Part shown: positions 22,627 to 46,160 of the stretch, piece by piece | How positions within the stretch are numbered: the stretch's first letter is position 1 | How the letters are laid out: each line of letters starts with the position of its first letter | From: an uncultured Chromatiales bacterium | Lineage (GTDB): Bacteria > Bacteroidota > Ignavibacteria > SZUA-365 | Direction of reading: 5' to 3' | Assembly: GCA_964371045.1 (NCBI GenBank) | Contig: CAYJMN010000003.1 | Span: forward strand, 1,459-65,458 | DNA length: 64,000 nt | Made by a program: the position numbers and the translations under genes | The notes under the pieces: model-generated | The model's database searches: none | Told to the model about the DNA's origin: nothing | What the model saw: only the letters and a program-made list of their open reading frames with translations

Positions 22627-23922
22627 TTGATACCACAGTTAGTCCGAACGGGATATCTTTTCCTGATGCTGTTTCTCACTTCGCAACTGTGCCGAGCACA
22701 ATCCGAAGCATTCAGTGATCAACGTGAATCACTACGGCACTCGTTTGTTATAAATTCTGGTTGGGCACGGCAACAAAGCGGGACCTCATTCACATGTTTC
22801 GGGATTTCATTCAGAGATAAAACAAATGGTTTTGTCGTATGCCGGGAGGCGTTGATTCTCGGCACAACAGATGGCGGCGATACATGGGTTGATCGATCCA
22901 ACTGGAAGGTACCCAATCGGGAGCTAAAGGCAGTCACCTTTGTAAATTCAAATCGAGCTTTTGCCTGTGGCGGAGGGAGTAGCATTTACAGAACAACCGA
23001 TGGCGGTGCAAATTGGACGAGTCAAGGATTCTGGCCAATGTACGGCTTCACAGCGATCTCATTCTGCGATACTTTACATGGCTGTGCGGTAGGGTGGGGT
23101 GGGACTATTCTTCGCACGACTGATGGGGGAGATCACTGGGTACAACAGACGAGCGGAACGACAGAATGGCTATTGGATGTTGACCTCCAGAGTCCGGAAA
23201 TTTGCACCGTCGTCCTGCAGTACGGTGTTCTCCGCACTACCGACGGTGGCAACACCTGGGTTATGAATCGAGATGTAGGTGGAAACGGTATCTCATTTAC
23301 AGATAATCTCGTCGGAACCATCATTGGAGGGTACGGCATGATTTTCCGGACAACCGACGGGGGAAATACTTGGACGCAACAGGCAAGTGGGACGACCATT
23401 CATCTCCAGGCAGTTTCTTTCTCAGACTCGTCTAATGGAACGGTTGTCGGTCCAGATGGGCTTATACTGAGAACCACAGATGGCGGAGATCACTGGACTA
23501 CGCAATCAAGTGGAACCATTGCATGGCTCTTTGATGTACAGATGATCGATGCGAATACCGTGACAGTAGTCGGGGACACAGGTATCATCCTCCGCACCAC
23601 CACCGGCGGTGTGACCTGGGTCGAGGAGCCGAAAAGTGCCCCTTCCCTTTTCCACCTCGGACAGAACTATCCCAATCCAGTCGCCGCGAGCACCAACATA
23701 CCCTTCTCCATCACGAAGCAAGAGCATGTGACGCTCAGCGTACACGACATACTTGGGAGACAGGTTGCTGTGCTGGTGGACGAGGAGCGTGAGATGGGAT
23801 CGCATGCAGTCCCCTTCGATGCGACTGGGCTTGCTTCGGGGATGTACTTCTATGTGCTTCGAACCGGGAGTGCTATTGAGACGATGAAGATGGTGCTGGT
23901 GAATCCAGCGGCTGGATTCTGA
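22627..23922 (+). CDS. BNR/Ycf48-like repeat protein with T9SS C-terminal sorting domain
   Basis: TTG start at 22627 (tool M). Signal peptide LFLMLFLTSQLCRAQS. Repeats of ILRTTDGGxxW. The last roughly 100 aa are nearly identical to the CTD of 12767-14917. Confidence 0.8.
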   Translation: MIPQLVRTGYLFLMLFLTSQLCRAQSEAFSDQRESLRHSFVINSGWARQQSGTSFTCFGISFRDKTNGFVVCREALILGTTDGGDTWVDRSNWKVPNRELKAVTFVNSNRAFACGGGSSIYRTTDGGANWTSQGFWPMYGFTAISFCDTLHGCAVGWGGTILRTTDGGDHWVQQTSGTTEWLLDVDLQSPEICTVVLQYGVLRTTDGGNTWVMNRDVGGNGISFTDNLVGTIIGGYGMIFRTTDGGNTWTQQASGTTIHLQAVSFSDSSNGTVVGPDGLILRTTDGGDHWTTQSSGTIAWLFDVQMIDANTVTVVGDTGIILRTTTGGVTWVEEPKSAPSLFHLGQNYPNPVAASTNIPFSITKQEHVTLSVHDILGRQVAVLVDEEREMGSHAVPFDATGLASGMYFYVLRTGSAIETMKMVLVNPAAGF

Positions 23923-28527: not shown

Positions 28528-28719
28528 GCCGTACAACATCGCTCACAATACGTTCGCACCCGCTGAACAGATGGTCCGCATGTACAATGCGTGATTATCC
28601 GGTATCATCTTGCCGTTCGAAGAAACTTCGGCTTGTAGAATTCCCTTTTACTTCCGGGTGCCCATGTGGGCAAGGCCCGAACCATCCATCACTCTTTACA
28701 TATTTCTCCAGGAGGATTC

Positions 28720-30156
28720 ATGAAACGTGCAACCATGTTCGCGGCGCTTTTCGCGCTGCTGGCCATTTCCGCCCAGGCCCAGGGTCCCGTCGTTCTGATG
28801 GGAATAGACGCGGAGGATTTCGGGCACCCCGTACCGGCGAATTACGTTACCGTCATGGGAACAGTGTATTCAAACGCAACGAACGGAGGAACCGGAGCTC
28901 TCGTCATCGGAGGCGGGAAAAACGCCCTCGATGGCGTCACGACGTTCTGGAACGCCCTCGCGGGGACAATCGGTCCCATCACCTACGTCAATGGCGCCGC
29001 CAATATCACCGCCGCCTCATTCGCGGGCTACCGGATGATCGGCGTTGTGAGTGACGCGTTTAACACATTCAGCGGCGGTTTGACGAACCTTGAGAATGAC
29101 GCGCTGACTGGTCGTTCCGGAGATATCGCGGGATTTATCAATGGCGGAGGCGGGCTGTTGGGCTTCTCGAGCACGCAACTTACCACCCCGTACGGGTATC
29201 TCGGAGCATTGGGGTCGTTTACGTCCGGTCTTCCCCCGCAGCAGGATCAGATCACTCCAACCGCTGAAGGTCTGGCAATCGGTGTGACCGATGCGCTGGA
29301 CGGCTGCTGCTGGCACGATTCCTATCTGACGTTTCCGAGTTTTCTCGATATCCTCGCGTACTATCCGAATGTCAGCGGTCTGCCCGCTGCGGCGATAGGC
29401 GGCCAGCAGGTCATCGTGGTGAATAACTGCCCATACTCACAGGGTTTCTGGAAAAATCATGGCGAGGGCGACTGCCATTCAGGCAATAATGCTGACTTCT
29501 GGCCGGCAACTGCGTTCCCGATGCTGGTCGGTACTGTTGCGTACGCGAAAGCTGACGTGTGTGAAATGATCCGTCTGAACAGCGCCGGTGGCAATGCCCT
29601 TCGCACCCTGGCTCGTCAGCTTATCGCAGCCAAGCTGAACATCGCCAACGGCTCACCGAATCTCGTCGCAGCCGAACTTGCTCAAGCTGATGCGCTGATC
29701 GGCGCACTGGATCCGAGAACCGCCAGTGTGCAGGCCAATTCTCCGCTTGGCCAGCAGATGAACGCGCTCGCCGGAGTGCTGGATATGTACAACAACAATC
29801 AGCTCCTCCCGATCTGCGTACCGCCGCCCGCGCCGGCCCCCAAGTCCGGATACACGCGTCCGAGCGATCTCGCAACCCAGGATATCCGGCTCGACTATAA
29901 CTACCCGAATCCCGTCGTCGATGGAACGTCGGTCGGCTACACGCTGAAGCAGGGTGGCAACACGGTCCTCGCGATCTACAACACGCTCGGCGCGAAGGTG
30001 CGTGAACTCGTCAACCGCAACGTCGACGCAGGTTCGTACAGCGTGAAGTGGGACGGACGCGACGACAACGGTATCGCCGTCAGCAACGGCGTCTACTTCG
30101 TCAAGCTGATGATGGACGGCCAGACGGTATCCACCAAGCTTAGCGTAGCTCGCTGA
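28720..30156 (+). CDS. secreted protein with T9SS C-terminal sorting domain
   Basis: ATG at 28720 after ggagga. Signal peptide MKRATMFAALFALLAISAQAQ. C-terminal YNYPNPVVDGTSVGYTL...VYFVKLMMDGQTVSTKLSVAR. Confidence 0.8.
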   Translation: MKRATMFAALFALLAISAQAQGPVVLMGIDAEDFGHPVPANYVTVMGTVYSNATNGGTGALVIGGGKNALDGVTTFWNALAGTIGPITYVNGAANITAASFAGYRMIGVVSDAFNTFSGGLTNLENDALTGRSGDIAGFINGGGGLLGFSSTQLTTPYGYLGALGSFTSGLPPQQDQITPTAEGLAIGVTDALDGCCWHDSYLTFPSFLDILAYYPNVSGLPAAAIGGQQVIVVNNCPYSQGFWKNHGEGDCHSGNNADFWPATAFPMLVGTVAYAKADVCEMIRLNSAGGNALRTLARQLIAAKLNIANGSPNLVAAELAQADALIGALDPRTASVQANSPLGQQMNALAGVLDMYNNNQLLPICVPPPAPAPKSGYTRPSDLATQDIRLDYNYPNPVVDGTSVGYTLKQGGNTVLAIYNTLGAKVRELVNRNVDAGSYSVKWDGRDDNGIAVSNGVYFVKLMMDGQTVSTKLSVAR

Positions 30157-30208: not shown

Positions 30209-30899
30209 TCGTTCGCATGCCGGAACACCGACGGCGGTGACGAGGGAAGCCCTCCCCGCCTGCGCCACCGATGCTCATCCGCAGCCGTGGCTCAGTACAC
30301 TGGCTTCGACGGCTTGCTCTCCGAGGCCGAGTCAGAAACGCTGTCGCTAACAGTAGGGCTTTGCCCGGGGCAGGATCGGCAGGGACACTCCACGCTCCGC
30401 TCTCCGTGCTCTGCTCGGATATCTAATGGAAGGATGTGTTTTCGGTGATCGGACCTGTGAGCGTGACTGTCACAGGATTGTCTGGTCACCCCGGCGTAGG
30501 GATCGTTGCTTGGTCCCCAGATAGCGGTCTTCGCAAGGCAGGATGATATTGCACAAACAGTGCAGCGATCGCCGCGAGCGCGGCGCTGATCCTGAAATGC
30601 GAATGCATAAGAGTATCACCTTGCATCGTGGTGCTATCTATCGAAATGCGTGCGATGCGTGGCTGGAGGACTCAAACGTCGGGACTTTCAGGAAGACTTG
30701 AACGTGAAAACAATATAATATGGTAGTAATATTTTAATCAATGTCGACGCGGGCTCCATGGCGCGTCGATCCCGACTTTTTCCTCGAGGTTGCTTTTCTT
30801 TGGCGCCCGATTTATGTTAAGGATATAATTATCATTTTTTCTCTCCGGTATCGACCGGGGAAACCGCCAGCTTCCATATTTACATTCCGCGAGCACATC

Positions 30900-32840
30900 A
30901 TGAACGCGTATCGGTTCCCCGCATTCGTCTTGCTGATTGCAGGATTATGCCTCACCTGCCTTTCCGCATGTGACGAAGGAGCACCAACAGACAACGGTGA
31001 TCCTTCTCTCATCCTGTTCGAAACGACGGTGGAGATTGGCCCTTCAGGCGGGTCAGCCACGTTGGAGGACGGTTCGTCAATCGAGATAGCGCAAGGAACG
31101 CTGGCGTCGACGACGAGCGTCACATGGGCGAAGCTGAAAGAAGACAAATTCTTTACCGGAACGAAGCTCCTCGTGTACGACCTGAGTTCGGACATCGCGC
31201 CGGCTATTGTCACGCTGAACATTCCTGTCGCTCCCGGTCAATCGAGCGAAGATTTCAGTATCTACAACTACGATCCAACGTATGACGCGGAAATTGACGG
31301 ACGCGACGTGGCATTTACGTATGATTCGCTTGGCGGGATGCTCACCGCCGTGCTTCACGTTGATGGAATCGCAGGTGGCGGCGGTTTGAGGAAAGCCGCC
31401 GACGGCGTCAAACGCACACGTATCGTGGTCGATAACGAGCCACTGGTCGAGCCCTCTGTGACACAGCTCGCGCTACCCATGCCCTTTTATCAGCAGGATG
31501 CGAAAACCTGCTACGCCACATGCGTGAAAATGCTCGCGAGGGCCTATACGCCGCAGGGAACGACGCAGGTGTGCGATATTCTGAAATGGATCGACTACCC
31601 CGAAACCACAGGTCCAAACTCCTATATGTACCAATGGCACATGCCGACACTCATCAAGCGCGCCACTGGATTTACCGCGCAGAGCGGACGCTACTGGTGG
31701 GCGCGATCGGCATTCAACAATCTCATCACGAAACTGGATGCCGGGTATCCGGTCATTATCGGTCGTATGGGACATTCCATTTTGGTAATCGGGTATGAAA
31801 AAACCAGTGGATTGAAAGGCCCCTCCGCATACCGCTATCTCGTCAACGATCCTTCAGGGGACTATGCGCCGAACACCTGGAAGGACTGGAATTGGTTGTT
31901 CCAGCGCAGCTTCGATTTCGGTTCTTTCGTCGAACTCTGGATCCCCCAGACGCCGCCCGCGAACCGCACCCTTCAGACAATCGCCATGCCCATGACTTCG
32001 GCGACCGGGCGCATCGAATTCCTCAAAACCAACGAAGACACCGGCGATGATGTCCCGATGGTCTCGCTCGACTTCAACAGGGCATCCGGCACAGGCTATG
32101 GATGGAAATACAGGACGCAGTGGGTGAACAGCATTCCCGAGGAAGCGACCAAACTGCGCGTACAGACCCAACTTCGTAACGCCGATGCGACGAAGAGTCC
32201 GCGGTCGGGCGTGTATCTGAAAGTGTGGCAGCATGGGACGGGCGGCGGGATGTTCATGGCGACGGAGTTTTTCACGCCGCCATCATCCGGAGCGAAAACG
32301 GAGTTTCTGAAAACCATCCCCTTCACCGAGTTCTTCACGCCCGGCGGTGACACCACCTGCACGCTCTCGCTGGAATTGCTCGACACGCAAGGCGCAACTG
32401 TTGATAAATTCTCCGTCGATTTCGTGCTCTCGCCGGCGGCGGCGGAGTACCGCATTATAAAGGAAAGTGGTAACGCGGCGCCATCCGGCATAACGCTCAC
32501 CCTGCCCACTGAAGTCGAGTTCGGGAAGACCTACAATATTCGCGGCGTGTGGGCCGACGTGCCCACGTATCCGGACGCGCAATATTCCATACTCGGTGGT
32601 TTCGTCGCGGACGAAATCGATCTTGAAACGGAATTATGGGTTCAAGCTGTGTTCCGCGACAAATTCGTGGACCTCAAGGGCTTCCACCATTATTTCGACG
32701 ACAACATCACGATATCAGACGCGGACAAGACCCGGAAATACTTCAAACTGCAGCTCACCATGCGCGCTTACGACGCCAACAACGCTTCGGCCCCATACTG
32801 GCTGCAGACGAGGATATACAAGATTCCGATAAAACAGTAA
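30900..32840 (+). CDS. lipoprotein with peptidase C39-like (papain-fold) domain
   Basis: ATG at 30900. Lipobox LTCLSAC. QQDAKTCYATCVKMLARAY ... GHSILVIGYEKTS ... YLVNDPSG resembles a Peptidase_C39_2 Cys/His/Asp arrangement. Confidence 0.65.
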   Translation: MNAYRFPAFVLLIAGLCLTCLSACDEGAPTDNGDPSLILFETTVEIGPSGGSATLEDGSSIEIAQGTLASTTSVTWAKLKEDKFFTGTKLLVYDLSSDIAPAIVTLNIPVAPGQSSEDFSIYNYDPTYDAEIDGRDVAFTYDSLGGMLTAVLHVDGIAGGGGLRKAADGVKRTRIVVDNEPLVEPSVTQLALPMPFYQQDAKTCYATCVKMLARAYTPQGTTQVCDILKWIDYPETTGPNSYMYQWHMPTLIKRATGFTAQSGRYWWARSAFNNLITKLDAGYPVIIGRMGHSILVIGYEKTSGLKGPSAYRYLVNDPSGDYAPNTWKDWNWLFQRSFDFGSFVELWIPQTPPANRTLQTIAMPMTSATGRIEFLKTNEDTGDDVPMVSLDFNRASGTGYGWKYRTQWVNSIPEEATKLRVQTQLRNADATKSPRSGVYLKVWQHGTGGGMFMATEFFTPPSSGAKTEFLKTIPFTEFFTPGGDTTCTLSLELLDTQGATVDKFSVDFVLSPAAAEYRIIKESGNAAPSGITLTLPTEVEFGKTYNIRGVWADVPTYPDAQYSILGGFVADEIDLETELWVQAVFRDKFVDLKGFHHYFDDNITISDADKTRKYFKLQLTMRAYDANNASAPYWLQTRIYKIPIKQ

Positions 32841-32880
32841 TTTCGAGCGGGTGATTCAACACTCCGCTCGAATGCTCATT

Positions 32881-34521
32881 TCATCGCACAACCATCACGC
32901 GACAATGCGCCGCGCCGGTCCGTGTGCCGAGCCGTGCGATATACATGCCGGCTGCCAGACGTCCGGGATTCCATCGCACTGTGTGCGCCCCTGCGTTCCT
33001 CCAACCTTCGCCGAACGCGGCCACCTTCCGGCCGCGAATGTCGTAGACATCGATGTCCGCGGTTCCCGCACGATCCAGGACGTACTCCAGCAGGGCGCTA
33101 TCCCGCACCGGATTGGTGAGCGAGCGGATTTCGGGATTCTTTGGCCGCGCGGTGGGAGAGGCCGCCGAGAGCGTGCTGTAATCGAAAGGTTCGTCCACAA
33201 GATGATAATAGGCCTCGCTCTGACCGTTGTAATCGCGACGGAGATACGGGCACACGAGAGGGGTACGGGTCAGGTCGGTGAGCGCCGTCAGCTGGGGTGT
33301 CCCGCTGTTCCAGTCGTACACCGGAATGCGCGAAGGATCGATTTCGGGACACATCCCGCGTTCGCGTGCGATGTGGAACAAGCCGAAATTCCCCGGTTCG
33401 TGCCCGCCAAGCCAGGTACCGACGACGTCGACCAGCAGCGGATTCTTGCCGAACACGAGAATATTGCTCATGAAATCTTCCGGTGTATCTCCAGGGCCAG
33501 GGCCTTTCGTGAAACCGTTTCCGTTTCTCCCGTAGATGCCTTCGATGATATTCAGTCCCGTAGGCGTGACGCTGATCGAGTCGAGAGTGCGCTGGGCCCA
33601 GGTTTCCATGCCGTAACCGCCATTGGTATCCCTTCCGGGGCGATCCCAGCGCGGGATGCCCGCAGCCGCATGACGCGCGTAGGCTTCATCGATACGCTGC
33701 TCGAAATCGACGTTGAACACGCGACGTTCGGTCTCGCTTCTGCTTTTCGTCCCATCCACTCCCTCGCAGAAATGCACGTACGGCGCCACCACCATGCCCT
33801 GGAGATTCTTCGTGCAGAGCGTCAATCCCATCGAGTGGGATTTGAACTTCGCGATGTTGATGAGCCAGGAATTGTCGTCGTTACAGGGAGCAAGATACCC
33901 GATACGATTGAACAACACACCGTCGGCGACATCGCGCCAGATTACTTCGGTTCCGGTTTGCAAATCCTCGAGACGCAGATCGTAGATATTCCTGCCGGAC
34001 TGGAAATCGAACAAATGCATTCCGTGCCGTGTGGTGACGGTGTTCATGCGCTGCCCCGTGACGAGGTACTCGCCGGTACAGTACCCGTTGCCCATCCAGT
34101 TGGCTTCCCGTACGAACATGTTAAACCCGGGGAAGCCCGTTTGCCTGATGCCGCCGAACAGCCCGTCCAGGAAATCGATGTCGGTGATGATGCCCATGCC
34201 TTCAGGGGTGTTGCCCGTGCCCGAGGTGCAGGTGAGATTGGGCTTGATGGCGAGGGCGTGTTCAAACGGTATGCCGGTATCTATATGCGGGGTGAAATAC
34301 TCCCGGCCAAACAGCAATCCTTCGTTTTTTTTCGCTGCCGCATCGAGCTTGTCGGTGACGGCGGTTTTCCGGATAAACACGGCCTCCGGGTGGGCTTCAA
34401 CGAACGGATGCGGCAGGAGAAAGGAAGGCAGGCGGCCGGGATTCGCACGCAGAAGGCGCGGCAGAACCGTACTGCCGGCTGCGATGGCGGAGATTCCGGC
34501 GAGAAAATCGCGTCGTTTCAT
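32881..34521 (-). CDS. Tat-signal DUF362 domain protein with T9SS C-terminal sorting domain
   Basis: MKRRDFLAGISAIAAGS is a twin-arginine motif. LAIKPNLTCTSGTG and IAKFKSHSMGLTLCTKNLQGMV are DUF362-like. C-terminal VYDIRGRKVAAFGEG...GMYIARLGT is CTD-like. The antisense 616-aa ORF is rejected. Confidence 0.75.
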   Translation of the reverse strand: MKRRDFLAGISAIAAGSTVLPRLLRANPGRLPSFLLPHPFVEAHPEAVFIRKTAVTDKLDAAAKKNEGLLFGREYFTPHIDTGIPFEHALAIKPNLTCTSGTGNTPEGMGIITDIDFLDGLFGGIRQTGFPGFNMFVREANWMGNGYCTGEYLVTGQRMNTVTTRHGMHLFDFQSGRNIYDLRLEDLQTGTEVIWRDVADGVLFNRIGYLAPCNDDNSWLINIAKFKSHSMGLTLCTKNLQGMVVAPYVHFCEGVDGTKSRSETERRVFNVDFEQRIDEAYARHAAAGIPRWDRPGRDTNGGYGMETWAQRTLDSISVTPTGLNIIEGIYGRNGNGFTKGPGPGDTPEDFMSNILVFGKNPLLVDVVGTWLGGHEPGNFGLFHIARERGMCPEIDPSRIPVYDWNSGTPQLTALTDLTRTPLVCPYLRRDYNGQSEAYYHLVDEPFDYSTLSAASPTARPKNPEIRSLTNPVRDSALLEYVLDRAGTADIDVYDIRGRKVAAFGEGWRNAGAHTVRWNPGRLAAGMYIARLGTRTGAAHCRVMVVR

Positions 34522-34842
34522 ACAGCACCTCGAAGATGGAGATCACAATGTACACATCGTACCAAGGGTAGACACATGAACGGCCCATTCGTTCCCTTTG
34601 CGGAAAAAATATTTTTCGGAAATGAGCGGACCTGTCTGTCTGCCGCTTATGCTACGAGTCGTTTCCATCAAATGCAAATGTTTTCTTACATTGGGGTCTG
34701 AAAGCGCGCATGATGGCGAAGATGGGTAGGCGCTGCCTCACGGTTACGCGTTGCAGTGTCTCCCGCTCCGATTCGACAGGAACTCCCTCCGGATCGATCG
34801 ATCACGTACCCCACAGCCGACATTCACATACGGAGCTTCATA

Positions 34843-36153
34843 ATGATTTATGAACTTTTAACCGGTCAACACTCTCCCGAGGAACAGCAGCTTCGCTATA
34901 AACTGCGATTCCTGTGGCAAAGCGACGGATATTCCGCTGCGGACCCGATCGTCAATCTCCTTCTCCACGACAACGACAGGGACGGATTGCTGTGGGGTAT
35001 GAGATACATACTCGACACACGCAAGTCGCCGGATTACCACTCAGGCATACGCCGGTCCTGCGAACTCGTGGAATCGGATCTCTCTCTTGAGGAACAATTC
35101 CGCATGTTGTATTTCCTCCTGGAGGATCATCAGGATACACTGATCATCAATTTCGTCACAGTGTTCGTGCAGAAGATCTGTCGCGTCGATAGTATTCCGG
35201 ATAATCATATTCCATTGTATCAGAAGGCGGGAGAACGACTGATTGCGGCTGGTCTGATTTCCCTCGGAAGAGATCTGCTGGAATTCCTCCTTGACACCGC
35301 ACCGATCAAAGCTTCAATCGCTGCTTACTCTTCGATGGTATCCATGGTTGGCGACGTTCGGGAAAACCCGCAAAACGAATTCCGGGCGCTGTTCCAGATG
35401 CTCCTCAAACGATTCAATATCCAACTCAGCGCCGAGACGACGGCCGAAGTGCACGAGAACTGGCACGAACCGATGCTGATGGCATGGTTCAATCTTATGA
35501 ACGAGTCCCCCGTCCCCCGGTACCAATACATGACGCGCGAGGAAAGAATTGAATATCTCGCCGGCCTGGCTGATAAAACGATGTATTTTGTGAAGCATCC
35601 CGAAGAGCGCTCACTTGACGACATTCTTCGCGGTTTGTTCGTGCTTGATATCGAGTGGAGGGAGGAGTTGTTTGGCCTTGAAGTAGATCCTGACGTTCCC
35701 TCCGAGGATGAATCCGATTCCATGCATCTCCCGGAATTCGACGATGAAGACTACCTCCGCTGCGTGGACTTCGTGCTCGATCATTTCGATCATTACCTGC
35801 CGGACAATAAAGCTGAAATCAAAGCCTTTGTACCACTCCTCTACCTCCCCATCTATGCGATGGATTACAAAATGCCCGAACTCCGCAGTGACCTCGAAGT
35901 CAAAGTGGACGGCACGTACCTTGCGACATTTATCCGTGACATGGCCGAGGTGGTTCAAATACTGTGGGAGATGCTTTCGGAGTACGATGAGGTGGGTAAG
36001 GCCTTGATGGCGATCGATGCCAATGATATTCTACTTGAGCACTGTGGTGAAGGTGTTTCAACCGAGGCGATCGAAATTTTCATCTCCACGCTGAAGACCG
36101 AAAAGAAAACCATACAGCGCGTCATGAAGGAATACAGGCACGGAGAGCGTTGA
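34843..36153 (+). CDS. hypothetical protein
   Basis: 436 aa from the ATG at 34843. No signal peptide. About 50% GC. Confidence 0.55.
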   Translation: MIYELLTGQHSPEEQQLRYKLRFLWQSDGYSAADPIVNLLLHDNDRDGLLWGMRYILDTRKSPDYHSGIRRSCELVESDLSLEEQFRMLYFLLEDHQDTLIINFVTVFVQKICRVDSIPDNHIPLYQKAGERLIAAGLISLGRDLLEFLLDTAPIKASIAAYSSMVSMVGDVRENPQNEFRALFQMLLKRFNIQLSAETTAEVHENWHEPMLMAWFNLMNESPVPRYQYMTREERIEYLAGLADKTMYFVKHPEERSLDDILRGLFVLDIEWREELFGLEVDPDVPSEDESDSMHLPEFDDEDYLRCVDFVLDHFDHYLPDNKAEIKAFVPLLYLPIYAMDYKMPELRSDLEVKVDGTYLATFIRDMAEVVQILWEMLSEYDEVGKALMAIDANDILLEHCGEGVSTEAIEIFISTLKTEKKTIQRVMKEYRHGER

Positions 36154-36288: not shown

Positions 36289-39200
36289 CTACGGCAATAC
36301 CACGAAGCTCCGCGTCGCTTCTCCGCTCGCTGTGCGCAGCGAAATGAAATAGACACCGGAACGAAGTCTGTCCGTGTCTATCACGATGCTGCCCTGGCCG
36401 TCAGCGGACGCCGCTTCGGTGCGGGACAGAATCTCGCGGCCCAGCACATCGCGCACACTGATACGGCTCACGCTGCCGACGGGGACACTGTACGGCACGG
36501 TCGTCCGCTCGCCTCGCACCACGGGATTCGGATGACTGTCGTACAGCGCGACGCCCTCCACGGGACGCGGCGCGGCAACAGACAGCGGCGAGACGATGGA
36601 GTACACCACCTGGATATCGCCGGGTGTTATCGGCGCGGGATGAAGTTCGATCTTTCCGTAATGCTTGCCGATCGGCAGGTCCGTGGTGACGGGTTGCACG
36701 TTCATGACCGTCCGCGCGTTGCCGTCCAGCGGGATCGTCGACAACCACGACGGCGATTGCGCCACCGACCACGCCGGGGTCGGTCCGCCGCCGGTCCAGA
36801 GCGTCACCGATTTCGACGCGGGCAGCGCTCCGAGATGCTCGGCGGTGAATCGCAGCAGCCAGGGCGTCAGCACGATTCCGTCCGGATCGCGCGCGGTGAT
36901 GGTCACTGTCGATTCACACGAAAGCGGCGTCTCCTGTCCATCGCAATCGGCGATCCAGCGCACCGCGACCGTCCCGGCGGCGGCCTGCGACTCCACGATG
37001 TCCAGCATCCACTCTGCGCTCGCTGACGCGCCTGGGAGGAGCGCGGGGATCATCTTGACGCTATCCTCCCCTGCCGCGAGAACGAGCACCGGAGGAAGCA
37101 CGATCGCGATGCGGCATGGCTTCGAAATCATCGTTCCCGTGTTGCGCACCGTGTACTGCAGCTGCAAGGGATCGGGAATCAGCGCTTCGTAGAAATTGTC
37201 GGCCCAGATCGTATCGTGACCGGCGGTGGAGCAATGCAACGACACGTAGCGCGGACCGCCTTCGATCAGCGTCGCCGCGTCGCAGGCGGAATGAATATCG
37301 CGGTCTCCGATGTCGATGGAGACGATGTAGCGCTCCTCCTCGTCCGTCGCAGCCCACAGCGGAGTCAGTTTCCAGGTGACGTCGACACTCGAACCGGCAT
37401 TCAACAGTGGAAGCACGCGCACGGGCATCGCGGGACCCACGAGCCGCGACCGTTTCAGCGACGCCGTATCGAGACGCGCCCGCACATTGACCAACGCGGT
37501 ATCCGTCGGATTGCGGAGCCGGAGTGTGACGTCGAATGGATCAGTCACATACTCACCGCGCGGCATATCGTAATGCACGGTGTCCGGAGACAGCACGAGG
37601 CATGGAATCCCGACAGCGGGGATGAATATCGTTTTTTCACACCGCGCCGCCTCCGAGGCGTCCGGCGCGTACGCCACGACGCCGATCGATGAAAGACGCT
37701 CCGTAGGCGAGGACAACGCGCGCAGCGACCACGACACCGTATCGCGTTCGCCCGCCGCGAGCTGCCGCAATCCCTTCAACCGCGCGTCCAGCAGCGCGAT
37801 CATGCCATCCGGAGGCAGCAGGATGTCCGCTTCTTTCAACGGCAGCGGAATGCTCCCGACATTGTGCAGTACCATGGTTGCGGTAAAGTCGGTTTGTGAG
37901 AGTAACCCATTTGAAGAATCGATATGGAGCGAATCCGGCAGGTCCAACGTGCAAAGGATTTCACCGCGCTGAACACGGATATTCACAATGGCTTCGCAGC
38001 GGTGTTCTTTCCCATCAGCCTCTGTGATATACACAAGACCGACGGTATCCGATACATCGTGGTCGATGGGTGGAAGCACGGCGAAGCGCCACTGCTGCAA
38101 CCTACGGAATCCTGGATTGACATAGAATCGATCCCGTCGCTCCACTTCGCCAGTGGCAAGTTGGAGGTGCGGCGCTCGCGACATGTCGAGTCGCTCCACG
38201 GTGTAAAAGCGCACGGTGTCCGCAGGATTCTCGATAGTCAGGCCAATCCCGAATTCCATCGGATCGCTGCGTCCGCTCATCGGATCCCATCGCACCGTCG
38301 GCGGCGAGATTGTGGAGCACACCGTGCCGTGCACACCGGGAATAGTGACGGTGAGTTCGCAGTACTGCGTTATTAAATCGAAGGTGTCCACCAGCACGGC
38401 CTTGAAGAAAACATCGCGGTAAAACTGCCACGAAAGCACCCGGAAACTGAACAACTCCTCCCTGTCGCTTCGTGGCGGAAGTTGCTGAAATGTTCTCTGG
38501 AGTGGAGTCAGAGAAAAGACACCCGTACCCGGCTGCACGACAAGGTTCAGCGCTTTGATTGGTGCCGGTTCGTCTCCGAGGTTGCGTACATGCACGAGGA
38601 CATGCAACGTATCGTTCGCAAGACGCAAGTCCTTGATTCCTGACTCCAGTTGGGGAAAACTCTTGATCGAGCAATGGACCTCGGTAGAGGCGAGATCCAT
38701 CAAGACAACTCGAACAGACCGAGTCCCGCTCGCGGTAACCGGACAAGGGGCATTCGGAGAAACTCGAAGGAAAAAGCGGAGTGACGCTGGATCGAGCAGC
38801 GTATCGAACGGCGCATGAAAAAACCACTCGAGTACGCGCGAGTCCCCGGGAGCGATGCTGGAGAGATACAGCTCCGATGGAGCCGATCCGTTCAGCAATT
38901 GTATGACACCGGGAATATTCAGCAGGACGCGAAGCGAATCCGACGTTGCGATGGAATCGACGTTGGTGATCCTCGCACGTAGTACACAAACCGATGGAGC
39001 AGCGATGCGTCGCAGGGTGTCAACGAACAATGTGTCCACGGCGTCAAGATCAACGGTCAGCGAGGTATTCAGACCCGGTGGAGGTGGAGAAATCGCCGGA
39101 CGCGGACAGATGCCGGGGATATCCAACCGGGTGAGCAGCAGGTCGTTACCCCCGGGGTTCGGTCCGGGCATGCCTGGCGTCGGCTGCATGTTGGTGCCTG

Positions 39201-41097
39201 TCGTCGCGGAAGCCAAAAATAACGACCGCTCGTGCAGTGAGAGCGAATACTCGGCGCTACCGCCGTACCAGCTGCAGAAAAGCACCGAGGCGGTTGTTGG
39301 ATCGATGACGGCGATGAAGGATTCGGGGGACGTCGCCACGCTGGTTTTATTCGCGATGGCGCCTACTTGCGGAAGATCGGCTGAATTGCTCTGTCCTGAA
39401 ATGATGATTCTACCGCAGGCATCGACATCCATTTCGCTGAACTGATCGGTGCCCGACCCGCCAAAATACGTGGAGAAGAGAATCTGCCCCCGGGGAGAAA
39501 TGCATCCCATGACAATATCGCTCGATCCGGTCGGTACAATCTTGAACCCCCGCACTATGGGAAATCCCGGCGCGTTTGTCTGAAATGCGAAATACAGATT
39601 CCCTGTGGAATCAAAGCGCATCGCACGCCGACCATATCCGCTGTACACGGCGTACGCTTCACTCAGGTAGGAAGAGTAATCGATCTCCCCATGCTCCGAA
39701 GCTAGTTTGGTGATCACCGCTCCGTTTGAATTCGGAGGCGTGGGAATCAGAGGATTCACTATGGGATATCCGGGCCTGGATGTCGCTCCGCTGACCACGA
39801 CTTCCCCATGATCCCCGACGGCGATGCACTGGTACTCTTCGTGTCCGGGTCCGCCCATCAGGGTGGCGTAGGTCAATGTCCAGTCACAGCTGGAATATTT
39901 CATGATGAAGCCGTCCTCAATACCCTGGAGGACATTGAGGTAGGCATCGTCCGTGACCATCGGAGGGGTGTAATACGTATGCGCGAAAAGAAACACATCG
40001 CCGTTGGCTCCGACGGCCATATCACAGATCAGTTGCAAGGTCTGCGTCTGGATGTAGGAAACGTACTCCCGCGCCCCGATGGGATCGAGGATAATGAATC
40101 CGTACGGACTGTAGATCGTATCCCTCGCGTCGGGTGTCAGCAGGTTCGCGAGATTCGTGTTCCATACCAGCAGAATAGTGCGGTCGTTGATGCCGATCTC
40201 CATGTCCCGCACTGAATTTCCATAGAATCCGTATGAGAACACGGTGCTGTGAATCACTGTCCGTCCGTCGGGTGAAATTTTCACGACGTAATCACCGTAG
40301 GTAAATTTGAACAGCAGCGAATCCGCCGGCACGAGGGGAAAATCAGGCGAAATCGTCGATCCCGCCAGGGTCGGATTGCCCTCGCTGTCCACACGAACGA
40401 GCGGGTTGGACTCATTCTTCGTCCCGCCATGAAACAGCGTAAATCCCACCGTCACTGTGAATGCGTACGGCCGCACATAGCCGCCGCCAAGCGTAATCTC
40501 GGTGGTGCCATCGCTGGTTTGACGAATGATGGGGTTCACCGCCGCATCGCCACTCTCGACCTGCAGTGCTCCCGGTGAAACGTTTTCGAAGTGCAACTTC
40601 ACCTGCGAGGGATCGGCCCTGGCGGCTACGTGTATCTCATGCCGAAGCTCGCCAGCGTCGCCTTCAACGCGTACATCGATCCCTTTCCACGCCTGAGCGT
40701 ATGTCAATGAGGATGTCGCTGGCAGCAGGGACTCGCGTGCTTGATTGGCGGAGCCATCGATCAATCGCAACGGTGCGACGGTCGCACCACTTTGCGCGGG
40801 ACGCAAATCCACACGCGTACCGAACATTTCCATGGATGAAAATACAGGGCGAGGCTGTTCCTGCTTGCCGCCATCACTGCCCGGAATCACGGCCACGCTG
40901 TAGCCATTGTTTGAAAACGACACCGTCGGTCCGTACCCTATGCTCGCGGCTTTGACGCGTGCGTCCCACTGACCGTCATTGAGCACGAAGGATCGGGGAA
41001 CCCGAATGCTCTCAACCCGTGGCGTAATCTGGGCGAGACCGGGTTCGCGCATGACGAACAACATGCACGCAAGTATGATCAATCGACGATGCTTCAT
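36289..41097 (-). CDS. giant SBBP-repeat surface protein with T9SS CTD (paralog A)
   Basis: 1602 aa. RBS ggagga. Signal peptide. N-terminal VPRSFVLNDGQWD (as in SBBP-family N-termini). Repeats of YFGGSGTDQ..DVDACG. C-terminal YDSHPNPVV...GVYFISLRTASGEATRSFVVLP. Confidence 0.9.
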   Translation of the reverse strand: MKHRRLIILACMLFVMREPGLAQITPRVESIRVPRSFVLNDGQWDARVKAASIGYGPTVSFSNNGYSVAVIPGSDGGKQEQPRPVFSSMEMFGTRVDLRPAQSGATVAPLRLIDGSANQARESLLPATSSLTYAQAWKGIDVRVEGDAGELRHEIHVAARADPSQVKLHFENVSPGALQVESGDAAVNPIIRQTSDGTTEITLGGGYVRPYAFTVTVGFTLFHGGTKNESNPLVRVDSEGNPTLAGSTISPDFPLVPADSLLFKFTYGDYVVKISPDGRTVIHSTVFSYGFYGNSVRDMEIGINDRTILLVWNTNLANLLTPDARDTIYSPYGFIILDPIGAREYVSYIQTQTLQLICDMAVGANGDVFLFAHTYYTPPMVTDDAYLNVLQGIEDGFIMKYSSCDWTLTYATLMGGPGHEEYQCIAVGDHGEVVVSGATSRPGYPIVNPLIPTPPNSNGAVITKLASEHGEIDYSSYLSEAYAVYSGYGRRAMRFDSTGNLYFAFQTNAPGFPIVRGFKIVPTGSSDIVMGCISPRGQILFSTYFGGSGTDQFSEMDVDACGRIIISGQSNSADLPQVGAIANKTSVATSPESFIAVIDPTTASVLFCSWYGGSAEYSLSLHERSLFLASATTGTNMQPTPGMPGPNPGGNDLLLTRLDIPGICPRPAISPPPPGLNTSLTVDLDAVDTLFVDTLRRIAAPSVCVLRARITNVDSIATSDSLRVLLNIPGVIQLLNGSAPSELYLSSIAPGDSRVLEWFFHAPFDTLLDPASLRFFLRVSPNAPCPVTASGTRSVRVVLMDLASTEVHCSIKSFPQLESGIKDLRLANDTLHVLVHVRNLGDEPAPIKALNLVVQPGTGVFSLTPLQRTFQQLPPRSDREELFSFRVLSWQFYRDVFFKAVLVDTFDLITQYCELTVTIPGVHGTVCSTISPPTVRWDPMSGRSDPMEFGIGLTIENPADTVRFYTVERLDMSRAPHLQLATGEVERRDRFYVNPGFRRLQQWRFAVLPPIDHDVSDTVGLVYITEADGKEHRCEAIVNIRVQRGEILCTLDLPDSLHIDSSNGLLSQTDFTATMVLHNVGSIPLPLKEADILLPPDGMIALLDARLKGLRQLAAGERDTVSWSLRALSSPTERLSSIGVVAYAPDASEAARCEKTIFIPAVGIPCLVLSPDTVHYDMPRGEYVTDPFDVTLRLRNPTDTALVNVRARLDTASLKRSRLVGPAMPVRVLPLLNAGSSVDVTWKLTPLWAATDEEERYIVSIDIGDRDIHSACDAATLIEGGPRYVSLHCSTAGHDTIWADNFYEALIPDPLQLQYTVRNTGTMISKPCRIAIVLPPVLVLAAGEDSVKMIPALLPGASASAEWMLDIVESQAAAGTVAVRWIADCDGQETPLSCESTVTITARDPDGIVLTPWLLRFTAEHLGALPASKSVTLWTGGGPTPAWSVAQSPSWLSTIPLDGNARTVMNVQPVTTDLPIGKHYGKIELHPAPITPGDIQVVYSIVSPLSVAAPRPVEGVALYDSHPNPVVRGERTTVPYSVPVGSVSRISVRDVLGREILSRTEAASADGQGSIVIDTDRLRSGVYFISLRTASGEATRSFVVLP

Positions 41098-41220: not shown

Positions 41221-44200
41221 TTACGGCAGCACGACGATGCTCCGTGTCGCCTCTCCGCTTGATGTGCGGAGCGAAATGTAATATACACCGGAACGGAGTC
41301 TGTCCGTGTCTATCACGATGCTACCCTGGCCGTCCACGGACGCCGCTTCGGTGCGGGACAGGATCTCGCGGCCCAGCACATCACGCACGCTGATCCGGCT
41401 CACGCTGCCGACGGGAACCCTGTACGGTAGGGTCGTGCGCTCGCCGCGCACAACGGGATTCGGATGGCTGTCATACAATGCGACGGTCTCCACCGGACGC
41501 GGTTCGGATACCGAGAGCGGCGCGATAATGGCGTACACAACCTGGATATCGCCAGGTGTTATCGGTGTGGGATGGATCTCGATCAATCCGCGATGCTCGC
41601 CGATCGGCAGGTCCGTGGTCACGGGTTGCACGCTCATGACCGTACGCGCATTGCCGTCGAGCGGGATCGTCGACAGCCACGACGGTGCCTGCGCCACCGC
41701 CCATGCCGGCGTGGGTCCGCCACCGGTCCACAGCGTCACGGACTTCGATGCCGGCAATGCGCCGAGGCGTTCGGCGGTGAAGCGCAGCAGCCAGGGCGTC
41801 AGCACGATCCCGTTCGGATCGCGCGCGGTGATGGTCACTGTCGCTTCACACGACAGCGGCGTCTCCTGTCCGTCGCAATCGGCAATCCAGCGCACCGCGA
41901 CACTCCCGACCGCTACCTGCGACTGCACGATATCCAGCATCCACTCCGCGCTCGCCGAAACGCCCGGGAGTATCGCGGAGATCATCTTGACGCTATCCTC
42001 CCCCGCCGCGAGAACGAGCACCGGAGGAAGTACGATCGCGATACGGCACGGTTTCGAGATCATCGTTCCCGTGTTGCGCACCGTGTACTGCAGTTGCAGA
42101 GGATCGGGGATGAGCGCTTCGTAGAAATTGTCGGCCCAGATCGTATCGTGACCGGCGGTGGAGCAATGCAACGACACGTCCCGCGGACCGCCTTCTATCA
42201 ATGTCGTCGCGTCGCAGGTGGAATGAATACCGCGCTCTCCGATGTCGATGAAAACCACATAGTGTTCCTCCTCGTCCGTCGCGGCCCACAGCGGAGTCAG
42301 TTTCCAGGTGACGTCCACGCTCGCGCCCGCATCCAGCAATGCAATCACGCGCACGGGCATCGCGGGACCCACGAGCCGCGACCGTATCAGCGACGCCGTA
42401 TCGAGCCTTACCTGCACATTGACCAATGCGGTATCCGTTGGATTGCGGAGCCGCAGTGTGACGTCGAACTCGTCCGTTTCATACTCGCCGCGCAACACAT
42501 CGTAATGCACCGTGTCGGGGGATATGACGAGGCATGGAATCCCAACAGCGGGGATGAATATCGTTTTCTCGCACCGCGCCGCCTCCGAGGCGTCCGGCGC
42601 ATACGCCACGACGCTTATCGACGAGAGCCGCTCGGTCGGCGAAGACATCGCGTGCAGCGACCACGACACCGTATCGCGTTCGCCCGCCGCGAGCTGATGC
42701 AAACCCTTCAACCTTGCGTCCAGCAGCGTGATCATGCCGTCGGGAGGCAGCAGTATGTCCGCCTCTTTCAGAGGCAATGCGGCGATGCCCACATTGTGGA
42801 ACACCGCCGTCGCGGTAAATTCCGAAGGAGAAATTAGGCCAGTTATCGTATCCAGATGGAGTGAATCCGGCAGCAGGAGATCGCACACAATTTCATTGCG
42901 CTCTACGCAAATATTCACGACGGCATCGCAGACATGCTCCTTCCCATCAAACTCCGTGATATACACAATCCCCACCGTCTCTGATACATCCTCATCGATG
43001 GGCGGTATGACGGCAAGATTCCAATTCTGCTTACGCCGGTAGCGATCCGCGACAAAGAATCTTGGGCGTTGTTCTATCTCCCCCACATCAAGTTTCAGAT
43101 GCGGAGCCCGTGAGAAATCGAGGCGATCCACTGTGTAGAAGCGCATGGTGTCCGATGGATTTTCAATGGTCAAGGCAATTGGTATCGGGTAGGGATCACT
43201 TGATCGGGCAACCTGATACCATTTCACTTCGGGCGGTGACGTGGTGGAGCAGATGGTTCCAGTCACGCCGGGGATTGTCACGCTTATCTCACAATGTTCA
43301 GTTTCGTAGTCGAAGGTGTCGATCAGTGCCGCAGTGAGTGTTATTGCTCTATTGATTTGCAATGAAAGGACTCGAAACAAGAATTCAGCCTCCACATCAC
43401 TCTTTGGGGGAATTGCAGCGATTGGTCGCAGAAGGGATGGCGATAAAAGGCGGAGAGTCGCAGCGTGCGGGTCGTGCAATCGGATGGCTTTGATCGGCGC
43501 AATGCTGGTGCCCACATTGTGGACGCGAACGCGAACATGCAGGGTGTCGTGTACCAATCGCATGCCCTGGATATCGACTTCTGGTTGAGGAAAACTTTCG
43601 AGCACGCAGTGTACTTCCTTGTACGAAAAATCTTCATGTATCACTGGGATGGTTTTCATCTGACTCGAGGATGTTGGGCAGACGTCAATCGGGAGAGCGC
43701 TTACGATGAATCGAAGCGAACCAACATTTCTCAACGAGTCGTAAGGTGAATGCAGTAACCATTCCAGTAATCGCTTTCCCTGCGGAGGCAGCCCCGGGAC
43801 AACTAATTCCAAAGGGATAGAACCAGCACGCAATTTGATTGCAAGAGGTATAGCGAGGCGGACGAGAAGCGAATCCGAGGTCAAGTGAGAATCGAGATTG
43901 CTGATGGTTGCCCGAAGGACGAAATTCGTGGGTGTCGCAACGCGACGGAAGGTATCCACGCGAACCGAACTCACGATGTCAATATTTACAGACAACATCG
44001 GGCCTCCTCTAGATAACGGTGGAAGCGCTACACGGGGGCAAAGTCCGGGTATATCCAATCGCGACAGGACGATATCACGACCGGAGGGATTTGGACCAGG
44101 CATGCCTGCTGAGGCTTGCATATTGTCGCCGGTCGTTGCCGATGAAATCAGGACGGAATTGTTATGCAGTGTGAGCGAGTATGGCGTCACCCCACCGTAC

Positions 44201-46023: not shown

Positions 46024-46049
46024 AAGGTCCTCCAATGCGGCAAGGTACG

Positions 46050-46160
46050 GTTCTTCGTCGTTCGTTCTTCGTTCCGAGTTCTTCGCTCTTCGCGCTTTGC
46101 TCTTCGCGCTTTGCTCTTCGCGCTTTGCTCTTCGCTCTTTGCTCTTCGCTCTTCGCCCGG
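46050..46160. repeat. tandem 15-mer (gctcttcgcgctttg) x5 in the B-C intergenic/promoter region
   Basis: 46083-46157 holds five tandem copies, preceded by a ttcg-rich stretch. Confidence 0.8.

What the first reader, a model, noticed from the sequence alone, without database searches (positions are those of the whole stretch)
32881..34521. Protein combining a Tat (RRDFLAG) signal, DUF362 domain and a T9SS C-terminal sorting domain
- T9SS cargo is normally Sec-exported.
- A twin-arginine signal implies a folded protein, possibly cofactor-bearing (DUF362 is often iron-sulfur-associated), crossing the inner membrane before T9SS export.
- That combination is unusual.
Basis: partly seen in the sequence, partly recalled or inferred. 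Interest (0 to 1): 0.6.

Follow-up and report, generated by a model that had tools for sequence, protein, structure and literature searches.

The report
Tat-signal enzyme with T9SS sorting tail
This gene encodes an uncharacterised enzyme-like protein with a leader for the folded-protein (Tat) export route and a tail for the type IX outer-membrane secretion system, a pairing kept in over a hundred relatives although published descriptions of type IX cargo mention only the Sec route.

Summary
Window 32881-34521 (-) is a 546-aa ORF with three parts:
- a canonical twin-arginine leader (MKRRDFLAG, weakly hydrophobic h-region, basic c-region);
- a ~420-aa core that passes Pfam DUF362;
- a 7-strand C-terminal beta-sandwich that just passes TIGR04183. 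It scores 48.5 bits (E 2e-14) against an HMM built only from the eight other T9SS tails in this window.

The pairing is a family trait.
- Of 191 non-redundant relatives, 174 keep RRxF[LIM] and 124 also keep a terminal CTD.
- The CTD is strong in FCB-group phyla, weak in Acidobacteriota and absent in Verrucomicrobia and Anaerolineae loci. The Tat motif stays everywhere.
- All other CTD proteins examined have Sec-type leaders.

Every paper I could search describes T9SS cargo as Sec-dependent, and one predictor (T9GPred) rejects Tat-signal proteins.

Most likely route: the protein folds in the cytoplasm, is exported by Tat, then secreted by T9SS.

The iron-sulfur hint is not supported, because only one Cys is invariant. 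The only solved fold relative of the core is LarA, and weakly. CBM9 neighbours and dockerin fusions hint at an extracellular carbohydrate-related role.

Nothing is experimentally shown, and tat and T9SS machinery genes could not be checked. Verdict: new variant of a known kind, moderate interest.

The parts
32881..34521 (-). Complete gene (546 codons plus stop). Domain order: Tat leader, DUF362-type core, linker, T9SS type-A CTD.
   Evidence: ORF list. An identical protein, P0001, occurs on 31 public contigs. More than 1,500 homologues were found.
34526..34531 (-). Shine-Dalgarno-like GAGGTG, 4 nt upstream of the ATG.
   Evidence: Read directly from the sequence. No in-frame start is possible further upstream.
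34444..34521 (-). Predicted Tat signal peptide, residues 1-26: MKRRDFLAGISAIAAGSTVLPRLLRA. The likely signal-peptidase site is after LRA.
   Evidence: Low-confidence N-terminal helix 3-25 in the model. h-region KD 1.63 against 2.32 in Sec-type CTD proteins, and basic residues in the c-region. The cleavage site is inferred from the sequence, not predicted by a tool.
34498..34518 (-). Twin-arginine motif K2-R3-R4-D5-F6-L7-A8.
   Evidence: The family consensus is x-R-R-x-F-[LIM]-[KR], found in 174 of 191 relatives. TIGR01409 hits 25 of 57 homologues. PF10518 hits P0136, P0077 and P0133.
33157..34425 (-). Globular core, residues 33-455: a conserved enzyme-like domain of unknown activity.
   Evidence: Core-only AlphaFold2 model with pLDDT 93.8 and pTM 0.93. 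About 75 columns are at least 95% conserved, including H38, K93, N95, D114, E139, K225, K227, H229, C252, H284, E306, D314, E327, H374, H383 and H440. The best solved fold match is LarA 9eia, E 4e-3, prob 0.90, TM 0.32.
33415..34251 (-). Pfam DUF362 (PF04015) match, residues 91-369.
   Evidence: 45.9 bits against a gathering threshold of 24.
33133..33177 (-). Flexible linker, residues 449-463. This is the expected region of CTD removal if the protein is processed like other T9SS cargo.
   Evidence: pLDDT drops to 66-78 between the two domains. Processing is an inference.
32884..33132 (-). T9SS type-A C-terminal sorting domain, residues 464-546: a 7-strand beta-sandwich ending at the last residue.
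   Evidence: TIGR04183 24.1 bits against a cut-off of 23. 48.5 bits, E 1.9e-14, against an HMM of the window's eight other CTDs. Seven strands with pLDDT above 90. Foldseek match to the mirolase CTD 8qb1_A.

Best explanation
The gene encodes a secreted or surface enzyme that most likely takes a two-step route not yet described for T9SS.

1. The ~46-kDa DUF362-type core folds in the cytoplasm, perhaps taking up a metal or cofactor there. This step is inferred.
2. The twin-arginine leader sends the folded protein through the Tat translocase into the periplasm, where the leader is cut off near residue 26. This is inferred from a canonical, strongly conserved motif.
3. The C-terminal type-A beta-sandwich is recognised by the T9SS, which carries folded proteins across the outer membrane. 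The tail is then removed and the enzyme is released or anchored on the surface. This is inferred from the tail's homology with the organism's other T9SS tails.

Outside the cell the core probably acts on a carbohydrate-derived substrate. This is the weakest step. It rests on a distant LarA-like fold and on association with CBM9 and dockerin modules.

The Tat requirement appears to belong to the core, and the CTD appears to be the lineage-specific outer-membrane address.
For: Tat leader:
- Canonical KRRDFLA at residues 2-8.
- RR present in all 174 motif-bearing relatives out of 191, with F at +3 in 97% and K/R at +5 in 71%.
- h-region KD 1.48 for the family against 2.32 for 23 Sec-type CTD proteins, p = 1e-10.
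- 80% of members have K/R in the c-region.
- TIGR01409 hits 25 of 57 members. PF10518 hits several.

CTD:
- TIGR04183 passes for the target and hits 44 of 57 members, best E 5e-12.
- 48.5 bits against an independent HMM built from the same genome's CTDs.
- 7-strand sandwich resembling a solved T9SS CTD.

Co-occurrence: 124 of 191 relatives have both signals.

Phyletic pattern:
- CTD scores 31-74 bits in Bacteroidota, Ignavibacteria, Latescibacterota, Gemmatimonadota, KSB1 and Calditrichota.
- 18-28 bits in Acidobacteriota and Planctomycetaceae.
- No CTD in the Verrucomicrobia and Anaerolineae loci.
- The RR motif persists in all of these groups.

Host context: eight further Por_Secre_tail proteins and a SprB-repeat protein lie in the same 64 kb. 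All have Sec-type leaders.

Specificity: none of about 27 unrelated CTD ORFs in 0.95 Mb of related DNA has a Tat-like leader. The target is the only Tat-like ORF in the window.

Feasibility: T9SS exports folded proteins (PMC9251779), and a Tat then T2SS route is established.

Extracellular, carbohydrate-related hint:
- CBM9-like CTD proteins lie next to family genes in 6 loci from at least 3 phyla.
- One relative carries a dockerin.
- DUF362-CBM9-dockerin fusions are reported in PMC5742341.
Against: - No experiment exists. All close relatives come from metagenome-assembled genomes.
- The curated models are marginal for this particular protein: TIGR04183 is 1 bit above its cut-off, PF18962 is below threshold, and no Tat HMM hit was reported.
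- tatA/tatC and the T9SS core genes could not be looked for in this genome. None lies in the window.
- Acidobacteriota and Planctomycetaceae relatives keep a weaker version of the same C-terminal sandwich. The domain may therefore have a role other than T9SS targeting.
- The LarA fold match is weak, with TM 0.32. No cofactor-binding residues were mapped.
- CBM9 neighbours occur in only about 7% of loci and not in this window.
Confidence: 0.68

Rival explanations
1. The protein is a periplasmic, or inner-membrane-tethered, Tat substrate. Its C-terminal beta-sandwich is a structural or ligand-binding Ig-like module (FlgD_ig-like) that only resembles a T9SS tail. The protein would never leave the periplasm.
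For: - Pfam PF18962 is below threshold for the target, and TIGR04183 is barely above its cut-off.
- A weaker homologous sandwich persists in Acidobacteriota and Planctomycetaceae (18-28 bits). A FlgD_ig-like tail occurs in a Chloroflexi-type member with a lipoprotein-like Tat leader (P0039).
- Foldseek hits for the tail are mostly generic Ig-like domains.
Against: - The tail scores 48.5 bits against the genome's own T9SS tails while nothing else in the window exceeds 4 bits.
- It ends exactly at the C-terminus and shows the NP..., G-x-Y and basic-hydrophobic end motifs shared with the eight neighbouring cargo.
- Strong tails are found only in phyla of the FCB group. One review assigns T9SS to that superphylum (PMC8047123).
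- Relatives carry dockerin and have CBM9 neighbours that themselves bear CTDs. This argues for an extracellular location.
Confidence: 0.2
2. The leader is an ordinary Sec signal peptide that happens to contain two arginines. The protein would then be a conventional Sec then T9SS cargo.
For: - No Tat HMM hit was reported for the target itself.
- RR pairs do occur by chance in Sec leaders of neighbouring cargo, for example MKHRRLIIL at 36289-41097.
Against: - The full R-R-x-F-[LIM]-[KR] consensus is conserved across phyla in 174 of 191 relatives.
- The h-region is significantly less hydrophobic than in Sec-type CTD proteins (p = 1e-10).
- 80% of members have a basic c-region.
- TIGR01409 hits 25 of 57 members.
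Confidence: 0.05
3. The core is an iron-sulfur protein, as some DUF362 proteins are, and that cluster is why Tat is used.
For: The Pfam description quoted in PMC5742341 says DUF362 often occurs in proteins with iron-sulfur-binding domains.
Against: - No Fer4-type domain was detected in the target or in ten relatives.
- Only C252 is invariant. The other Cys columns are 43-77% conserved and show no CxxC-type pattern.
Confidence: 0.05

Closest known systems
Canonical T9SS type-A cargo (Sec leader plus TIGR04183/PF18962 C-terminal domain), such as gingipains, mirolase and Flavobacterium chitinase
   Same: A C-terminal ~80-aa, 7-strand beta-sandwich lies at the very end of the protein and shares the same sequence motifs. 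A flexible linker precedes it. The gene sits among many other CTD-bearing genes.
   Different: The N-terminal leader is twin-arginine type, not Sec type. Published descriptions and the T9GPred rule set treat a Sec leader as a defining property and a Tat signal as an exclusion criterion.
[quoted passage not shown]
   Same: The logic is the same: a folded protein is exported by Tat to the periplasm and then carried across the outer membrane by a system that accepts folded cargo (abstract of PMC4899797).
   Different: The outer-membrane step here would be T9SS, addressed by a cleavable C-terminal domain. T2SS uses a conformational signal instead.
DUF362 (PF04015) / LarA superfamily (Pfam clan CL0471, with DUF2088, the lactate racemase N-terminal domain)
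   Same: The protein passes the DUF362 gathering threshold. The only solved structure resembling the core is a LarA, 9eia. The clan relationship is stated in PMC11770544.
   Different: - The core forms a discrete subfamily: 294 clusters at 50% identity reach E <= 1e-3.
- It has large insertions, with 279 residues aligned to a 200-position model.
- It has an export leader and an extracellular address.
- It has no detectable sequence similarity to any solved protein.
- Whether it binds the nickel-pincer cofactor is unknown.
DUF362-CBM9-dockerin multi-modular proteins from lignocellulose-degrading enrichments (PMC5742341)
   Same: These too are extracellular DUF362 proteins associated with CBM9 and dockerin modules. 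Here CBM9-like genes neighbour family genes, and P0054 contains a dockerin.
   Different: In those proteins the modules are fused in cellulosome-type proteins. Here they are separate neighbouring genes in a minority of loci, and the address is a T9SS tail. I did not test whether those proteins belong to the same DUF362 subfamily.

Membership tests
T9SS type-A cargo | C-terminal domain matching TIGR04183 / PF18962 at the curated threshold | tested here: inconclusive
   TIGR04183 scores 24.1 against a cut-off of 23 and passes. PF18962 scores 15.6 against 27 and fails. 44 of 57 homologues hit TIGR04183, best E 5e-12.
T9SS type-A cargo | Tail is homologous to the CTDs of other cargo in the same organism and lies at the extreme C-terminus | tested here: met
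   48.5 bits, E 1.9e-14, against an HMM of the window's eight other CTDs. The next best ORF scores 3.9 bits. The match ends 1 residue from the C-terminus.
T9SS type-A cargo | Seven-strand Ig-like beta-sandwich fold | tested here: met
   AlphaFold2 predicts seven strands between residues 464 and 544 with pLDDT above 90. Foldseek matches the mirolase CTD 8qb1_A with target-normalised TM 0.67. The fold is generic, so this is supporting evidence only.
T9SS type-A cargo | N-terminal Sec signal peptide | tested here: not met
   The leader is twin-arginine type. This is the point of departure from the described family.
T9SS type-A cargo | Host encodes the T9SS machinery (SprA/Sov, PorV, PorU, GldK-N/PorK-N) | not testable with these tools
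   No machinery gene was recognised in the window. The evidence is indirect: nine CTD proteins and a SprB-repeat protein lie within 64 kb.
T9SS type-A cargo | T9SS-dependent secretion and removal of the CTD | not testable with these tools
   This needs genetics and proteomics.
Tat substrate | Consensus (S/T)-R-R-x-F-L-K close to the N-terminus | tested here: met
   K-R-R-D-F-L-A at residues 2-8. The family consensus is x-R-R-x-F-[LIM]-[KR].
Tat substrate | Weakly hydrophobic h-region and basic c-region | tested here: met
   Target KD is 1.63 and the family mean is 1.48, against 2.32 for Sec-type CTD proteins, p = 1e-10. R22 and R25 are present in the target, and 80% of members have K/R in the c-region.
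Tat substrate | Match to the curated Tat-signal models (TIGR01409, PF10518) or a dedicated predictor | tested here: inconclusive
   The target gave no hit at E <= 1. 25 of 57 homologues hit TIGR01409. PF10518 scores 17-22.6 bits, against a threshold of 22.7, in four relatives. SignalP 6 and TatP were not available.
Tat substrate | tatA/tatC present in the genome, and export dependent on them | not testable with these tools
   A simple TatA-motif pattern scan found no match in the window or the 85 loci, and TatC was not searched.
DUF362 (PF04015) | Score above the Pfam gathering threshold | tested here: met
   45.9 bits against 24, covering model positions 2-199 of 200.
LarA superfamily (nickel-pincer-nucleotide racemases and epimerases) | LarA fold | tested here: inconclusive
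LarA superfamily (nickel-pincer-nucleotide racemases and epimerases) | Conserved cofactor-binding and catalytic residues, and larB/larC/larE in the genome | not tested
   No residue-level structural alignment or genome-wide gene search was possible.
Iron-sulfur DUF362 proteins | Ferredoxin-type domain or conserved cysteine cluster | tested here: not met
   No Fer4 hit. Only one cysteine is invariant.

The most novel reading that the evidence does not exclude
This would be the first recognised class of Tat-dependent T9SS cargo. The core would be an extracellular LarA-superfamily enzyme that must be loaded in the cytoplasm with a metal or organometallic cofactor, possibly the nickel-pincer nucleotide, for which no periplasmic assembly route is known. 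It would then be delivered folded through Tat and T9SS to the cell surface, where it isomerises or otherwise transforms sugar acids or polysaccharide residues alongside CBM9-bearing partners.
Probability: 0.12. Interest if true: 0.8.

Novelty: new variant of a known kind. Interest (0 to 1): 0.55.

Why it matters
- If Tat-exported proteins can be handed to the T9SS, the accepted definition of T9SS cargo (Sec leader plus CTD) is too narrow. Secretome predictors that discard Tat-signal proteins, such as T9GPred, would then systematically miss a class of surface enzymes in Bacteroidota and related phyla.
- It would extend to T9SS the Tat-to-outer-membrane hand-off already known for T2SS. It would also give a natural test of whether T9SS accepts proteins that were already folded before they reached the periplasm.
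- It points to a discrete, conserved, extracellular branch of the uncharacterised DUF362/LarA clan as a candidate new environmental enzyme activity.

Tried and rejected
- Sequence searches against PDB with the protein and with a 57-sequence profile found nothing usable. The single hit, an antibody VH domain at E 0.19, is spurious.
- Foldseek with the full model returned only generic Ig-like hits to the tail. I therefore modelled the core alone, which gave only a weak LarA match.
- I looked for a conserved operon across 82 loci by all-against-all clustering of neighbours.
  - No neighbour recurs in more than 9 loci.
  - The largest apparent clusters were the family itself merged with other CTD proteins, and a spurious antisense ORF.
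  - A first CBM9 HMM was contaminated by the CTD and had to be rebuilt on the CBM9 part alone.
- A pattern search for TatA in the window and in all loci found nothing. The genome-wide presence of Tat and T9SS genes therefore remains untested.
- Iron-sulfur cluster idea: rejected on cysteine conservation.
- Alternative upstream start: impossible, because the ATG is the first start after a stop.
- Eight literature searches found no report of a Tat-dependent T9SS substrate and no functional study of DUF362. The library excludes most subscription-journal papers, so absence there is not proof.
Full report
**1. What is there**

Window 32881-34521 on the minus strand is a 546-codon ORF. It starts at the first start codon after an upstream stop. 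An SD-like GAGGTG lies 4 nt before the ATG.

The ORF is convergent with the gene downstream of it (a Peptidase_C39_2 lipoprotein, 30741-32840) and divergent from the gene upstream of it, so it is probably monocistronic. A 616-aa ORF on the opposite strand (32851-34701) has no family match and is best read as an antisense shadow.

An identical protein is on record on 31 public metagenomic contigs. More than 1,500 homologues were returned, and the named ones are all labelled only 'DUF362 domain-containing protein' or an equivalent.

**2. The three modules**

(a) Core.
- Pfam DUF362 scores 45.9 bits against a threshold of 24, over residues 91-369.
- AlphaFold2 with a 57-sequence alignment gives a confident model: pLDDT 89 for the whole protein and 93.8 for the core alone.

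(b) Tail.
- TIGR04183 scores 24.1 bits against a cut-off of 23. Pfam PF18962 scores only 15.6 against 27.
- Because the curated models are marginal, I built an independent HMM from the C-terminal 85 residues of the eight other Por_Secre_tail proteins in this window.
- That HMM scores the target's tail at 48.5 bits, E 1.9e-14. The best of the remaining six-frame ORFs scores 3.9 bits.
- The model shows seven strands between residues 464 and 544 with pLDDT above 90, preceded by a low-confidence linker.
- Among many generic Ig-like Foldseek hits is a solved T9SS CTD, mirolase 8qb1_A.

(c) Leader.
- The leader reads MKRRDFLAGISAIAAGSTVLPRLLRA.
- It has the twin-arginine consensus, an Ala/Gly/Ser-rich h-region (mean Kyte-Doolittle 1.63) and two arginines in the c-region.
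- The eight neighbouring CTD proteins have classical Leu/Phe/Ile-rich Sec leaders.
- The target itself gave no TIGR01409 or PF10518 hit.

**3. It is a family trait, not an accident**

I combined 120 database homologues with 80 loci fetched from GTDB species genomes, which gave 191 non-redundant sequences.
- 174 have RR.[F..][L..] within the first 45 residues.
- 129 have a CTD scoring at least 30 bits that ends at the C-terminus.
- 124 have both.
- Of the five 'CTD only' cases, three are truncated gene calls and two are Poribacteria variants with RK instead of RR.

Around the motif, F at +3 is 97% conserved, L/I/M occupies +4, and K/R at +5 is 71% conserved.
- The family's h-regions average KD 1.48, against 2.32 for 23 unrelated CTD proteins (Mann-Whitney p = 1e-10).
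- 80% of members have a basic residue just after the h-region.
- Curated models agree at family level. 44 of 57 members hit TIGR04183 and 25 of 57 hit TIGR01409. One relative (P0133) is hit by TAT_signal (below its threshold), DUF362 and Por_Secre_tail together.
- None of about 27 unrelated CTD-bearing ORFs in 0.95 Mb of related genomic DNA has a Tat-like leader.
- The target is the only Tat-like ORF in the window.

**4. Phyletic pattern**

Scores are against the window-derived CTD HMM.

| Group | CTD score (bits) | Tail position |
|---|---|---|
| Bacteroidota, Ignavibacteria, Latescibacterota, Gemmatimonadota, KSB1, Calditrichota, Zhuqueibacterota | 31-74 | ends 0-3 residues from the C-terminus in nearly all |
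| Acidobacteriota, one Planctomycetaceae MAG | 18-28 | weaker homologous sandwich with a different last strand |
| Verrucomicrobia, Anaerolineae loci | no match | other tails or none; some have lipobox-like Tat leaders |

- The twin-arginine motif is kept in all of these groups.
- The simplest reading is that Tat export is a requirement of the core, while the CTD is the outer-membrane address used where a T9SS exists.
- The weak sandwich outside the FCB group is the main reason to keep a rival reading open, in which the domain has a role of its own.

**5. Host context**

- The window is dense in T9SS cargo, with nine CTD proteins in 64 kb.
  - Three are tandem ~1,600-aa DUF7948 paralogues.
  - Two are BNR/YCF48-like proteins.
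  - One is a FlgD_ig-type protein.
- There is also a 1,976-aa DUF7948/SBBP/PKD/SprB-repeat protein.
- No T9SS or Tat machinery gene was recognised in the window.
- The closest genomes are uncultured Bacteroidota/Ignavibacteria-type MAGs.

**6. What the core might do**

- No solved structure is detectable by sequence.
- With the core-only model, the only meaningful Foldseek hit is lactate racemase LarA from Isosphaera pallida: 9eia, E 4.4e-3, prob 0.90, TM 0.32 over about 350 columns.
- That fits the Pfam clan shared by DUF362 and DUF2088/LarA (PMC11770544), but the relationship is remote.
- About 75 columns are at least 95% conserved. They include six histidines, one cysteine and many acidic and aromatic residues. 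This pattern is enzyme-like and compatible with a metal site.
- Only C252 is invariant among cysteines and no ferredoxin domain is present, so the iron-sulfur idea is not supported.
- The subfamily is discrete: 294 clusters at 50% identity reach E <= 1e-3 and 76 reach E <= 1e-30. Nearly all full-length representatives carry RRxF.
- There is no conserved operon.
- Recurrent hints point outside the cell and towards carbohydrates.
  - CBM9-like proteins, four of the six with FlgD_ig- or Por_Secre_tail-type C-terminal domains, lie near family genes in six loci from Gemmatimonadota, Latescibacterota, Calditrichota and unclassified MAGs, and directly beside them in three.
  - One relative carries a dockerin between the core and the CTD.
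  - DUF362-CBM9-dockerin fusions have been reported from lignocellulose enrichments (PMC5742341).
  - ROK-family regulators and Y_Y_Y-type sensor kinases also recur near family genes.

**7. Comparison with what is known**

- Every source I could read describes T9SS cargo as Sec-exported.
  - PMC9251779.
  - PMC8047123, whose table lists 'T9SS 2 (Sec)' against 'T2SS 2 (Sec/Tat)'.
  - PMC7073777.
- T9GPred derives from 102 verified cargo the rule 'has Sec signal, has no Tat signal'.
- No paper found reports a Tat-dependent T9SS substrate. The library omits most subscription-journal papers.
- The route is mechanistically plausible, because T9SS moves folded proteins and the analogous Tat to T2SS route is established.
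- I therefore class this as a new variant of a known kind: real, conserved, apparently undescribed, but not paradigm-breaking.

**8. Shown versus inferred**

- Shown: the ORF, the three modules, their conservation and co-occurrence, the phyletic pattern, and the contrast with Sec-type cargo.
- Inferred:
  - that both signals function;
  - the order of events;
  - signal cleavage near residue 26 and CTD removal in the linker;
  - any cofactor;
  - the substrate.

Confidence is about 0.68 for the Tat then T9SS route. It is about 0.2 for a periplasmic Tat protein with a non-targeting Ig-like tail, and 0.05 or less for a Sec leader.

Noticed in passing
window 36289-41097 (-), 41221-46173 (-), 46192-51024 (-): Three tandem paralogous giants of about 1,600 aa (DUF7948 N-terminal domain; the one scanned also has a weak CARDB match). 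They have near-identical Sec leaders and near-identical T9SS tails. This looks like a recent tandem expansion of surface proteins.
   Followed up: partly
window 56467-62397 (-): A 1,976-aa protein with DUF7948, SBBP beta-propeller, PKD, Ig_7 ('CHU_C associated') and SprB repeats. No recognisable CTD lies at its end, and the last ~60 residues look low-complexity and Arg/Ser-rich. The sorting domain may be frameshifted or lost.
   Followed up: no
window 12557-63547: T9SS cargo is unusually dense, with nine Por_Secre_tail proteins in about 50 kb: 12557-14917, 17362-18750, 22627-23922, 28666-30156, 32881-34521, the three giants, and 62471-63547.
   Followed up: partly
window 32851-34701 (+): A 616-aa ORF lies antisense to the whole target gene. 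Similar antisense ORFs appeared in 17 related loci during clustering. It has no family match and is most likely a shadow of the strongly conserved sense frame.
   Followed up: partly
window 16000-22000: GC drops to 43-46%, against about 55% elsewhere. The stretch includes an AT-rich CTD protein (17362-18750), an HTH protein and three ORFs with no family match. It may be a horizontally acquired island.
   Followed up: no
window 30741-32840 (+) and 34756-36153 (+); locus L004: The flanking Peptidase_C39_2 lipoprotein (lipobox LSAC) and an ORF of about 436 aa with no family match are also found near the 73%-identical homologue in GCA_027493955.1 (there with a 179-aa ORF in between). Synteny is lost in more distant genomes.
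   Followed up: partly
loci L030, L044, L049, L052, L060, L081: CBM9_1/CBM9_2 proteins lie beside or near the DUF362 family gene, four of the six with FlgD_ig or Por_Secre_tail C-terminal domains. In L030, L049 and L052 they are directly adjacent on the same strand.
   Followed up: yes
loci L022 2227-2772, L030 8467-9006, L035 6212-6766, L038 7704-8264, L039 7642-8187: A conserved ~182-aa signal-peptide protein with no Pfam match lies just downstream of the family gene or its CBM9 neighbour in five Latescibacterota, Gemmatimonadota or unclassified loci.
   Followed up: partly
loci L044, L058, L061, L080: The Tat-DUF362 gene is present as two or three paralogues within one locus (tandem in L058, L061 and L080). 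This suggests diversification of substrate specificity.
   Followed up: no
loci L014, L016, L028: MAGs labelled 'Chromatiales' and 'Phycisphaerae' carry family members with strong T9SS-type tails (41-63 bits). This could reflect mis-binning, mislabelling or horizontal transfer.
   Followed up: no
proteins P0087 and P0104 (Candidatus Poribacteria type): The leader has N-R-K-E-F-I-K instead of R-R. This is a natural RK variant of the twin-arginine motif in proteins that keep the CTD.
   Followed up: no
window 1-12500: This stretch has only short ORFs. They include a Phd/YefM antitoxin, HTH proteins, a Sel1-repeat protein, a shikimate-kinase-like protein, RibD_C and a 3-demethylubiquinone methyltransferase-like protein. 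Coding density in long ORFs is much lower than in the rest of the window.
   Followed up: partly
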